64,000 nucleotides of DNA from the human T2T-CHM13v2.0 reference genome, Homo sapiens, in assembly GCF_009914755.1 (NCBI RefSeq), contig NC_060937.1; one strand, 5' to 3'. A model generated the notes under the pieces. That model ran no database searches. It had not been told where the DNA came from and saw only the letters and a list, made by a program, of their open reading frames with translations. Positions 6,401 to 9,400 of the stretch are shown here, piece after piece. Every line of letters starts with the position of its first letter. Position 1 is the stretch's first letter. Made by a program: the position numbers and the translations under genes.

Positions 6401-9400
6401 GCTCTTCCATTCAATAAGAGTAAATGAGCAATTCATGGAGAATGTTTATTGCATTTGACCTTTCAAGATACCACACAATTTCATTTCAGTATGCAGCCTT
6501 TTATGTGAATTTCTTTGTGTTTTCAGAGCCAAAAGCCTTGAAAGTCTCATCTATATGAGTACCCGGACAGATAAAGATGGCAAAGGGTAAGATTTTATTA
6601 AGACAGACCATTTTGATTGAGTCCCAGATGGTGTACTATTTTCTGGAGGAGACCTCCTGCTTAGTACAAGGGTCAGGCAGGCTGGTGGAATAAGCCTTAG
6701 ACTGGGGTCCAGGGATAGTGTGTATCTTGGTGCTGGTTTTGCCACCAACATCAATCTGGGTGACCCTGGGCAAGTTGTGTAATTTCTGGAGAGCTCTGTT
6801 TCCTCATTCCATAAAATGAAGGATATGACCTAGATGATCTCCCAGTTCCCCTTCATATCTAAAATGGAAAGAAACACAACTAGCTGTTACAAGTAGTGGA
6901 GAATAGGTTGGTTTATGAACTAAATACATTTATATTAAGGCATTTAGGTGCTGGGAGCATAGCCCCTCACCACTGAAGTCTCTTTCTCTCTTTTTCTTTT
7001 CTTTAAGACAGAGTCTTGCTCTGAGGCCCTACCTTGGCTCACTGCAGCCACCGCCTCCCGGGTTCAAGTGATTCTTTTGCCCCAGCCTTCCGAGTAGCTG
7101 GGATTTCAAGTGCCCGCCACCACGCCCAGCTAATTTTTGTATTTTTAGTAGAGATGGTGTTTTACCATGTTGGCCAGGCTGGTCTTGAACTCCTGACCTC
7201 ACGTGATCTGCCCACCTAGGCCTTCCAAAGTGTTAGGATTACATGCATGAGCCACCACGCCCGGCCACCACTGAAGTCTTTAGAGTGTATAAAGGCACTT
7301 CTCAGTTGGAATCTTAGTTGGGTCATTTCATATGTATATCTCTTCATACGTATTTGTAAATACCTTTAAATGAAAAGCTATGCTTTTATTTATTTTAAAT
7401 CATAAAATGGGTTAATTGATGATTAGTAACTGAACTGATAGCATTTAAGAGGTTGCCTTATAGTTCTAGCCTGACTGATATACTAGATAATTGACTTACA
7501 TGACTGATATTATTTTTCTTGTTGAAAGAAACCAAAGCCGTGACCATTTCACTAGAGAAAATCCCAGAATAGTCAAGAATGACAAAGGGCAAGGATTTAT
7601 GAGATCTCTACTATTTTTGCCTTCCAGATTGGCTGTTTACTTTGTATTTGGTTAGTCATGAAATTTGCCTTTCTAACATGAGAATTATTTCTATTGTCAC
7701 AGTTATTTTTAAAAACCATTTATCTGTGCCAATCTATGCCCAGAATGGCATTCTAGCTTTCCAAACCAATCTTGGCGATGCATTCTTAACCCTTTATGAT
7801 GTAGAACACTTAACAAAGTCTACATGATGAAAAGCATTGGCAGTAACCATCACACAGGCTTGTTAATAACATATGATTATAATGTAAACATGCCAACATA
7901 TTATAGACAATTTTTTAAAAATGTGGAATAGATGAAGTTGAAAAACAGTCTCTTTTTTTTTTTTTTTGTACATGGCTATATGAGCTTTCTAGGAATAGAT
8001 GAGGTTCCAGATATTTTTCAAAAACAGTTTGGAGAGTTCTGCAAAAGTGGTAGACAAAAGGACAAGTAGGATGTGCATCTTAAGTAGATCATTTTGTGGG
8101 CTGGGAAAAAGATTTATAATCTGGGATAATTTGATAACAACTGAGTTTTGGTGCAGGAATAACTGATCTTGTCTGCATGGTAGGGAAAAAGTCCTAGTTC
8201 TTTTTTCTTCTTCCCTTCCTTCTTTCTCACATTGAAATAACTTAAAATGTCAACAGTCTTATCACAGAGAAATCAGAGAGATGAAAATGGCAAAGCATAA
8301 TACTTGGAAGCTTGGGGGAATTTAAAGAGATTAGCTTTCATATTCGCTAATAATTTTTAATCATTAGCATGTGAAAGTTTTATTTCATTTATATAAAGTG
8401 CTGGGACCATAACAGTTATTTTGACTTTACCAAGGTGACTTCAGACCCTTTAAACACATCTGCTAACTTTTTAAGAGAAATGACTTGTCTGAATTCTCAA
8501 AGTATTTAGACTTAAAATATTGATCAATTGATTTCTACCCCTGATGTAAATGATTTTCATGCTTAAATAAGACAGTATCTCAATATACGTATTAAAATTA
8601 GCCTCCCACCAACCCACCTCCAAGAAAGCAAAAGCCTTGGTTAAAACTTTTAAGTTGACTCCATCATAACTGAGTAATGGTTGGTATCTTAGTCTCAGGC
8701 TGCTGCTTATGCATTTTGCATGATGGATAGAGCCACCTGAATTCAGTATTTCCAAGGACTTCTGATCCTTTAGGCACTGATTGTATCTTATGAGATTCTC
8801 TTGTGGGAAATCTGCTGTTGTCATTACGAGAGTCTGAATATATCACTGAGTTGCTCTTGCCTCACTCTCTCTTTCTCTTTCTTTTCCCCCAATGTTGTAA
8901 AGAATCCAAAGCCTTGGAAGTCCGATTAAAGTTAATCAAAGGACTGACAAAAATGAGAAAGGGTAAGTCAATCTCCTACCTTGATGGAGCTCTTTTTATT
9001 CAGGTTAGCTTTTTTACCTCATTAGGAATGGGAGTGTTATGCTTTCCTTTGTGGCAGTGAACTCTTGTACTGCTTTGACCCATCAGACCTAGTAGGCAAA
9101 AGGAATATGTTGAGTGCTGTTTCATAGGACCTCTGATTTGAGTTACATTGAAGTAGGTGCAGGAAAACCTGCTACATAATCTCTTATTCCGTATTTTCTT
9201 AAATAATTAAGAGATGAGTCAAATTTTAATTTAAATTAAGAAATATAAAGGACAAAATTGCACAGCGAGAGCCACATTGAGAAGCCTTTCTAAACTGATT
9301 TAGACACATTTAAATGAAATGCTATTGTGGAAATTACTAAAGGTAAGTTAAGGATAATTACATCAAAGCTCTTTTTGGTCATTTGGTCCTGAAAACACCT

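What the first reader, a model, noticed from the sequence alone, without database searches (positions are those of the whole stretch)
7505..7600. Intact 60-nt repeat exon with a GT>GC donor, apparently absent from the canonical protein
Seen: tatttttcttgttgaaag|A AAC CAA AGC CGT GAC CAT TTC ACT AGA GAA AAT CCC AGA ATA GTC AAG AAT GAC AAA GG|gcaaggatttat. It is exactly 60 nt, stop-free, phase 2-2 and encodes [20 protein letters not shown], which aligns with [12 protein letters not shown]... and ...SDKG. Its donor flank mirrors that of the previous exon (GG|gtaagattttat). From memory the reference protein runs ...DKDGKG-IQSLGSP... without this unit. Inference: either a rarely used GC-AG cassette exon or an exon silenced by one T>C change; loss of the conserved Leu/Ile residues suggests relaxed selection.
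Basis: partly seen in the sequence, partly recalled or inferred. Interest (0 to 1): 0.75.

Follow-up and report, generated by a model that had tools for sequence, protein, structure and literature searches.

The report
Dead repeat exon in human sciellin
An intron of the human skin-barrier gene SCEL holds a well-preserved leftover of a 20-residue repeat exon that bats, moles, squirrels, rabbit, horse, anteater and tarsier still use, and the human copy has a GC where the splice donor should read GT.

Summary
Window 7529-7588 is a 60-nt, stop-free unit in the same phase as the SCEL repeat exons. It has an AG acceptor and GC at donor +1/+2.

It is a true family member. A DNA profile of the 17 used repeat exons plus flanks matches 7507-7600 end to end (31.3 bits, E=9e-9).

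It is also the positional and sequence ortholog of a coding unit, here called X. X lies between the orthologs of the two flanking human exons in SCEL proteins of 16 named species from eight orders, including tarsier and anteater. None of 13 anthropoid proteins has it. A search of 5.8 billion proteins with the human peptide found nothing.

The donor matches that of a used paralog at every position from -3 to +6 except +2 T>C. Its predicted U1 pairing is weaker than all 21 used donors.

The best reading is an ancestral placental exon that dropped out of the human message. Rare GC-AG use is not excluded, because no RNA data were available. Relaxed selection is not shown: divergence equals that of the used neighbours.

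Two or three further relics lie in other introns. This is a new member of a known kind, of modest interest.

The parts
7507..7528 (+). Acceptor region of the relic exon: pyrimidine-rich tract and AG at 7527-7528
   Evidence: Pyrimidines are 12 of 17 at -20..-4, within the 9-15 of 17 seen for used exons. The stretch is covered by the profile match 7507-7600.
7529..7588 (+). Relic of SCEL repeat exon 'X': 60 nt, open, same phase as the used repeat exons
   Evidence: Searches give the anatomy. nhmmer gives 31.3 bits, E=9e-9. The best protein matches are the unit directly after the ortholog of 6527-6586 in other mammals. BLASTP to tarsier gives E=2e-9.
7589..7596 (+). Donor region with GC at +1/+2 (7589-7590) instead of GT
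   Evidence: Positions -3..+6 read AGG|GCAAGG, against AGG|GTAAGG at used exon 16884-16943. The U1 duplex is -4.7 kcal/mol, against -5.5 to -12.5 for 21 used donors.
6527..6586 (+). Used SCEL repeat exon upstream of the relic
   Evidence: Hub annotation. Its ortholog precedes unit X in 59 of 160 proteins.
8903..8962 (+). Used SCEL repeat exon downstream of the relic
   Evidence: Hub annotation. Its ortholog follows unit X in 38 of the 59 X-bearing proteins, from bats and mole.
10247..10306 (+). Second relic (B): 60 nt, open, same phase, AG acceptor and GT donor, not annotated
   Evidence: nhmmer 10226-10316, 23.0 bits, E=3.5e-6. Translation. The donor is weak: A at -1 and U1 duplex -5.4. No distinct ortholog among 120 proteins.
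13236..13295 (+). Third relic (C): decayed unit with a one-base gap against the profile and a stop in the entry frame
   Evidence: nhmmer 12.3 bits, E=0.0075. Frames shown.
2387..2431 (+). Possible fourth relic (D): partial and weak
   Evidence: nhmmer 8.6 bits, E=0.11 with flanks, and 11.0 bits, E=0.033 with the exon-only profile. Not significant on its own.

Best explanation
Window 7529-7588 is the human remnant of an ancestral placental SCEL repeat exon, called unit X here. SCEL encodes a cornified-envelope protein whose central domain is an array of roughly 20-residue repeats. Each repeat is carried by its own 60-nt symmetrical exon, so any one can be dropped without breaking the frame.

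Unit X lay between the exons now at 6527-6586 and 8903-8962. It is still spliced into SCEL mRNA models of bats, a mole, squirrels and marmots, rabbit, horse, an anteater and a tarsier. In humans, and by the protein models in all anthropoids sampled, it is no longer part of the message.

The one recognisable splicing lesion is C instead of T at donor +2. This adds a mismatch with U1 snRNA in a donor that is only of average strength for this gene. Exon definition then fails and the spliceosome joins 6586 directly to 8903.

Shown: the anatomy, the homology, the orthology by sequence and by position, the absence from annotated products, and the weak donor. Inferred: that the exon is effectively silent in human tissues, and that the +2 change is the cause and not a later event.
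For: - Anatomy.
- Family membership: the DNA profile of 17 used repeat exons with flanks hits 7507-7600 over its full length (31.3 bits, E=9e-9). Used exons score 34.7-71.6 bits.
- Orthology by sequence: the five best-scoring distinct contexts among 120 SCEL proteins (76, 75, 73, 65, 59) are all the unit directly after the 6527-6586 ortholog. The next best score is 52.
- Orthology by position: of 174 proteins, 160 hold that upstream ortholog. In 59 of them unit X follows it, and in 38 of those 59 the ortholog of 8903-8962 comes next. That is the human genomic order.
- Tarsier versus human paralogs: BLASTP of the relic against tarsier SCEL gives 38.5 bits, E=2e-9, at residues 307-339. The best human paralogous unit gives 28.1 bits.
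- Age: X-bearing species include Xenarthra and Boreoeutheria, so the unit predates the placental radiation.
- Absence in the human lineage: 0 of 13 anthropoid proteins from 9 species carry X. None of the 25 RefSeq transcripts has an exon there (hub table). A search with the human peptide found no protein among 5.8 billion.
- Donor: it equals the used donor of 16884-16943 at -3..+6 except +2. Only 5 of 7 non-GT positions fit the consensus, so there is no compensation. The U1 duplex of -4.7 kcal/mol is weaker than all 21 used donors.
- Literature: functional GC donors are under 1% of sites and fit the rest of the consensus better than GT donors (PMC2490688, Findings section read; PMC3167603, passages read).
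Against: - No RNA-seq, EST or peptide data could be consulted, so silence in human tissue is inferred from annotation only.
- GC donors can work, and GT>GC changes accumulate in mammals in association with alternative splicing (PMC2490688).
- The relic keeps an open frame, a normal acceptor, and an exon-like density of GAA/CAA motifs. It has 6 per 60 nt, against a mean of 5.0 in used exons and 2.1 in random 60-nt windows, of which 2.4% reach 6. Such motifs were needed to activate a weak GC donor in BTK (PMC3167603, abstract).
- Its divergence from orthologs (13.3/20) is no greater than that of used neighbours (13.8 and 13.7), so there is no clear sign of long neutral decay.
- The donor base in species that use X is unknown. 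It could also be C there.
- Strepsirrhine (0 of 5 proteins), tree-shrew, muroid and many laurasiatherian models also lack X. In those lineages the unit has either been lost several times or is simply skipped, so its absence from protein models is a soft criterion.
- The peptide alone scores only 5.4 bits, E=4.3, against the profile of human repeats.
Confidence: 0.7

Rival explanations
1. The unit is still a functional but rarely or conditionally included GC-AG cassette exon in humans. It would add one divergent 20-residue repeat in frame and has been missed by annotation.
For: - The frame is open, the phase is correct and the acceptor is normal.
- The GAA/CAA enhancer-like content is in the range of used exons.
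- GC donors are enriched at alternative exons and arise often in mammals (PMC2490688).
- A weak GC donor can be selected efficiently with enough enhancers (PMC3167603, abstract).
- All SCEL repeat exons behave as cassettes in the isoform models.
Against: - It is in none of the 25 RefSeq transcripts (hub table).
- 0 of 13 anthropoid proteins carry it.
- No protein in the 5.8-billion set shares enough words with the human peptide.
- The donor has no compensating consensus (5 of 7) and the weakest U1 pairing in the gene.
- Arg replaces the one Leu that is invariant in the 17 used human units.
Confidence: 0.15
2. The exon is dead in humans, but the GC is not what killed it. Either GC at this donor is old and works in the species that use X, or inclusion was first lost for another reason, such as loss of an enhancer, a weak AAG acceptor, or tolerated skipping. 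The T>C would then have come later by drift.
For: - The donor base in other mammals is unknown, and no DNA of another mammal was available.
- X is absent from the models of many lineages, including strepsirrhines, tree shrew, muroids, carnivores and pigs. Skipping or loss of this unit is therefore frequent and need not depend on one base.
Against: - All 21 used donors in the window are GT.
- Apart from +2 the relic donor is identical to a working paralog donor.
- No other lesion is visible in the acceptor, the frame or the enhancer-like content.
Confidence: 0.12
3. It is a chance open frame between an AG and a GC in an AT-rich intron, unrelated to the repeat exons.
For: - The protein profile gives only 5.4 bits, E=4.3.
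- The exon-only DNA profile gives E=0.064.
- A 19-codon open frame is common by chance.
Against: - The full-length profile match with flanks has E=9e-9.
- The specific match to unit X of other mammals sits at the syntenic place in the array, with E=2e-9 against tarsier.
Confidence: 0.01

Closest known systems
The annotated 60-nt SCEL (sciellin) repeat exons. [quoted passage not shown]
   Same: It shares the length, the phase, the AG acceptor with an A-rich last few bases, the donor context, the purine-rich composition and the place in the tandem array.
   Different: It has GC instead of GT at the donor, Arg at the invariant Leu position, and no place in any annotated human transcript or protein (hub table).
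Unit X of non-anthropoid SCEL proteins, for example P0127 tarsier residues 307-326, P0125 Myotis and P0081 squirrel
   Same: It is the same unit by sequence, at 11-15 of 20 identical residues with the same characteristic core. It is also the same by order: after the 6527-6586 ortholog and before the 8903-8962 ortholog.
   Different: There it is part of the predicted mRNA. In human it is intronic. The human copy shows five or six replacements against the majority residue at positions 3, 4, 6, 8, 9 and 14, read by eye.
Functional human GC-AG introns
   Same: There is GC at +1/+2, and the next used acceptor downstream ends in AG.
   Different: Functional GC donors fit the remaining consensus better than GT donors do (PMC2490688, PMC3167603). 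This one fits only 5 of 7 positions and lacks A at -2 and T at +6. No evidence of use was found.
Lineage-specific exon loss leaving a pseudo-exon, that is, exon death by splice-site mutation. This is a general class recalled from knowledge; no specific paper was read.
   Same: An ancestral coding exon is retained as recognisable intronic sequence with a splice-site lesion, while the gene stays functional because the exon is symmetrical.
   Different: The frame here is still intact and divergence is no higher than in used neighbours. The loss is therefore either recent or the whole array is under weak constraint.

Membership tests
SCEL 20-residue repeat exon family | 60-nt symmetrical exon: one base completes a codon, 19 codons follow, and two bases are left over | tested here: met
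   7529-7588 is 60 nt with the same layout as the 12 used exons of 60 nt.
SCEL 20-residue repeat exon family | Nucleotide homology to the repeat exons including splice flanks | tested here: met
   nhmmer gives 31.3 bits, E=9e-9, over profile positions 4-97.
SCEL 20-residue repeat exon family | Peptide fits the repeat consensus (invariant Leu at position 4, hydrophobic positions 7, 8 and 10) | tested here: not met
   The protein profile gives 5.4 bits, E=4.3. Position 4 is Arg. The Glu at position 10 is shared with all X orthologs.
SCEL 20-residue repeat exon family | Canonical GT donor | tested here: not met
   GC lies at 7589-7590, while all 21 used donors in the window are GT.
SCEL 20-residue repeat exon family | Present in SCEL mRNA or protein of this species | tested here: not met
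   It is in none of the 25 RefSeq transcripts (hub table). The human proteins P0023 and P0051 lack it. The protein search with the human peptide found nothing. RNA-seq was not available.
Ortholog of unit X of other placentals | Best match is to unit X and not to any other repeat | tested here: met
   Scores of 59-76 go to X units, against 52 or less for any other unit. Tarsier X gives 38.5 bits, against 28.1 bits for the best human paralog.
Ortholog of unit X of other placentals | Same position in the array | tested here: met
   X follows the 6527-6586 ortholog in 59 of 160 proteins and precedes the 8903-8962 ortholog in 38 of those 59.
Functional GC-AG intron | GC donor with above-average fit at the other donor positions | tested here: not met
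   The fit is 5 of 7, the same as average GT donors of this gene. The U1 duplex of -4.7 kcal/mol is the weakest of 22 donors.
Functional GC-AG intron | Spliced junctions observed | not testable with these tools
   No RNA-seq or EST resource was available. Annotation and protein databases show none (hub table).
Pseudo-exon left by lineage-specific exon loss | The disabling change arose on the lineage that lost the exon | not testable with these tools
   The own genome has no relatives in the tools. A pattern scan of genome contigs found 0 matches.

The most novel reading that the evidence does not exclude
The relic is not dead. It would be an unannotated human GC-AG cassette exon whose weak donor restricts inclusion to particular tissues or states. 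It would insert a divergent repeat, with Arg at the invariant Leu, into sciellin. A common or rare C>T allele at the +2 position could then switch it back on in some people.
Probability: 0.12. Interest if true: 0.5.

Novelty: new member of a known kind. Interest (0 to 1): 0.33.

Why it matters
The locus gives a clean, datable example of how a modular repeat protein of the skin barrier gains and loses units one exon at a time. The same exon is coding in tarsier, rodents, bats and an anteater, yet it lies intact but unused in a human intron, with a single obvious splice lesion.

It is useful as a natural test case for three things:
- models of GC-donor strength;
- annotation pipelines, since an open, in-phase, AG-flanked unit that is not an exon is easy to miscall;
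- interpreting human variants at the donor +2 position, where a C>T change could re-create a working exon.

It does not change what is known about sciellin function. Loss of a symmetrical repeat exon is an expected kind of event.

Tried and rejected
- The own genome (human T2T) has no relatives in the tools, so the donor base in other mammals could not be read. A degenerate pattern for the unit found 0 matches in genome contigs.
- The protein profile of the 17 used repeats did not pick out the relic (5.4 bits). The exon-only DNA profile was borderline (E=0.064). Only the profile with flanks and the ortholog comparison were decisive.
- The 58 kb of SCEL upstream of the window holds no further repeat unit or relic (best E=1.6). 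The array lies wholly within the window.
- Relics B, C and D have no distinct ortholog among the first 120 proteins. Top scores are 35-43 and spread over different units.
Whether B or C match a unit used in some species therefore stays open for the 54 later proteins.
- An excess of human-lineage replacements in the relic was looked for and not found.
- Literature: full-text searches found no description of this relic. The term sets were 'sciellin, exon, repeats', 'sciellin, alternative splicing', 'SCEL, pseudoexon' and 'sciellin, LIM domain, repeats, cornified envelope'. Only listings were read, plus one passage of PMC5041940.
- The original cloning paper (J Biol Chem 1998) is not held. The gene-structure paper in Genomics 2000 is recalled and was not looked up or read. 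Either could mention it.
- One search on GT-to-GC variants found nothing.

Full report
**Observation**

- AG lies at 7527-7528 behind a pyrimidine-rich tract.
- The unit 7529-7588 is exactly 60 nt. Its first base completes a codon, 19 codons follow without a stop, and two bases are left for the next codon.
- GC lies at 7589-7590.
- Including the unit between 6586 and 8903 would keep the frame.
- The two human SCEL proteins retrieved run directly from the 6527-6586 unit into the 8903-8962 unit (P0023, P0051).
- According to the hub's RefSeq table, none of the 25 transcripts has an exon here.

**Is it more than chance?**

The open frame and the peptide alone do not show it.
- A protein profile built from the 17 annotated repeat units scores those units at 22.9-34.0 bits. 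It scores the candidate at 5.4 bits (E=4.3) among 3599 six-frame pieces.
- A DNA profile of the exons alone gives 10.1 bits, E=0.064.

With 25 nt of upstream and 15 nt of downstream flank added, the picture changes.
- The profile matches 7507-7600 from position 4 to 97 at 31.3 bits, E=9e-9.
- That is just below the weakest used exon. Used exons score 34.7-71.6 bits.

The unit with its splice-site flanks is therefore a real copy of the repeat-exon module.

**Other relics**

The same scan found further copies in other introns.
- Relic B at 10226-10316 scores 23.0 bits, E=3.5e-6. Its unit at 10247-10306 is again 60 nt, open and in phase, with AG and GT.
- Relic C at 13236-13295 scores 12.3 bits, E=0.0075. 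Its frame is broken.
- Relic D at 2387-2431 is weak, with E=0.11.
- The 58 kb of the gene upstream of the window holds none (best E=1.6).

The SCEL introns thus carry a small graveyard of repeat exons. The finding is the best preserved of them in terms of profile score.

**What it is**

The protein database holds many vertebrate sciellins.
- A search seeded with the LIM-domain exon returned 518 proteins, of which the best 120 were listed.
- A second search, seeded with the relevant 40 residues of a squirrel protein, returned 67.
- Together these gave 174 distinct proteins.

The human relic peptide was aligned to the first 120.
- The five best distinct contexts score 76, 75, 73, 65 and 59.
- All five are one and the same unit, the one directly after the ortholog of human exon 6527-6586.
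- Every other repeat scores 52 or less.

Over all 174 proteins (species):

| Class | Proteins |
|---|---|
| Hold the upstream ortholog (6527-6586) | 160 of 174 |
| Unit X follows it directly | 59 |
| The ortholog of 8903-8962 follows it directly | 76 |
| Another unit follows it directly | 25 |

- In 38 of the 59 X-bearing proteins the ortholog of 8903-8962 comes right after X. Those 38 are from bats (Myotis, Pipistrellus, Rousettus) and the mole Talpa.
- That order is exactly the human genomic order: 6527-6586, relic, 8903-8962.

BLASTP places the relic's best hit on tarsier SCEL at residues 307-339, at 38.5 bits and E=2e-9. The best unit in a human SCEL isoform gives 28.1 bits.

**Distribution of unit X**

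X is present in protein models of 16 named species:
- Sciurus, Ictidomys and two Marmota species;
- rabbit;
- tarsier;
- Przewalski's horse;
- Talpa;
- four Myotis species, Pipistrellus, Rousettus and Rhynchonycteris;
- the anteater Tamandua.

Four unnamed records also carry it. Tamandua is a xenarthran and the tarsier is a haplorrhine primate. By parsimony the unit is therefore older than the placental radiation and was still present in early primates.

X is absent from:
- 13 of 13 anthropoid proteins (Homo, Pan, Gorilla, Pongo, Macaca, Piliocolobus, Aotus, Sapajus, Cebus);
- 5 of 5 strepsirrhine proteins;
- the listed tree-shrew, muroid, hystricomorph, carnivore, pig, hippo and rhino models.

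Absence from gene models is weaker evidence than presence. All these 60-nt exons are cassettes that appear in many combinations.

A search of the 5.8-billion-protein set used the human relic peptide read with its open intronic flanks to reach the minimum length. It found one candidate and no hit at E<=10. No deposited human or ape protein model of 89-2000 residues therefore contains it.

**Mechanism**

Donor:
- At positions -3 to +6 the relic donor reads AGG|GCAAGG.
- The used exon 16884-16943 has AGG|GTAAGG. The two differ only at +2.
- Three more used exons share the same context apart from +6.
- At the seven non-GT positions the relic fits the consensus in 5 of 7. That is average for this gene, where the range is 3-7.
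- Functional GC donors are reported to compensate by a better fit elsewhere (PMC2490688, Findings section; PMC3167603, introduction passage). This one does not.
- The computed duplex with the U1 5' end is -4.7 kcal/mol. All 21 used donors in the window lie between -5.5 and -12.5.

Acceptor:
- It is ordinary, with 12 of 17 pyrimidines against a used range of 9-15.

The simplest account is that the +2 T>C pushed an average donor below the threshold for exon definition. Because the exon is symmetrical, skipping it costs nothing but one repeat.

**Evidence against or limiting this reading**

1. I had no RNA data. Silence is inferred from annotation and protein databases.
2. The relic still looks like an exon.
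   - Its frame is open.
   - Its count of GAA/CAA motifs is 6 per 60 nt. Used exons average 5.0 (range 2-8) and random 60-nt windows of the gene average 2.1, with 2.4% reaching 6.
   - A high density of such motifs was what let a weak GC donor in BTK be used efficiently (PMC3167603, abstract).
3. There is no measurable excess of divergence. Over 14 species the human relic shares 13.3 of 20 residues with its orthologs. The two used exons upstream share 13.8 and 13.7. One species is misregistered for the first of these, which lowers that mean.
4. Against the majority residue of the orthologs, the human copy differs at five or six positions. I read these by eye, and they are not significantly more than in the neighbours.
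   - Thr at position 8 also occurs in a used human exon.
   - Only Arg at position 4 replaces a residue that is invariant in all 17 used human units. The tarsier copy and the unnamed records also lack Leu there.
5. The donor base in species that use X is unknown. It might be C there too.

These points leave room for two rivals: a rarely used GC-AG cassette, and a dead exon whose GC is a consequence and not the cause.

**Comparison with what is known**

- Sciellin is described as having 16 inexact 20-residue repeats and a LIM domain (PMC5041940, passage citing the 1998 cloning paper, which is not held).
- Four full-text searches of the paper library on sciellin exons, splicing and pseudoexons turned up no description of this relic. 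The gene-structure paper of 2000 is recalled and was not looked up or read.
- Loss of a symmetrical repeat exon that leaves a recognisable pseudo-exon is a known kind of event. This is a new, tidy instance and not a new phenomenon.

**Verdict**

The silenced-exon alternative is favoured, and the relaxed-selection argument is not demonstrated.
- It is a new member of a known kind, of modest interest.
- The decisive data are splice-junction counts in SCEL-expressing tissues and the base at +2 across mammals. Both are public but out of reach here.

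Noticed in passing
window 10247-10306 (profile match 10226-10316): A second unannotated repeat-exon relic. It is 60 nt, open and in the same phase, and it keeps the Leu-Asp and hydrophobic core. Both AG and GT are intact. The donor is weak, with A at -1 and a U1 duplex of -5.4 kcal/mol. No distinct ortholog was seen among 120 proteins. On paper it is a better cassette candidate than the finding itself.
   Followed up: partly
window 13236-13295 and 2387-2431: Two more decayed copies of the repeat-exon module. 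The first has a one-base gap and a stop in the entry frame (E=0.0075). The second is partial and weak (E=0.11). By the hub table, the first lies just upstream of the first exon of the antisense lncRNA SCEL-AS1 (13314-13388, minus strand).
   Followed up: partly
proteins (e.g. P0127, P0081, P0122, P0082 versus P0125, P0123): Unit X and its downstream neighbour, the ortholog of 8903-8962, seem to be retained differentially. Both are present in bats and mole. Only X is present in the tarsier, squirrel, marmot, rabbit and anteater models. Only the neighbour is present in anthropoids, strepsirrhines, muroids, pig, hippo and rhino. This could be reciprocal loss of adjacent paralogous exons, or it could be isoform sampling.
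   Followed up: no
window, acceptors of the 17 repeat exons: Twelve of the 17 used repeat exons have an AAG acceptor and not the usual CAG or TAG, and so do relics A and B. Weak acceptors of this kind may underlie the free skipping of these exons in the isoform models.
   Followed up: no
P0076: The orangutan sciellin model is 863 residues, far longer than the other primate models (571-733). The cause was not examined.
   Followed up: no
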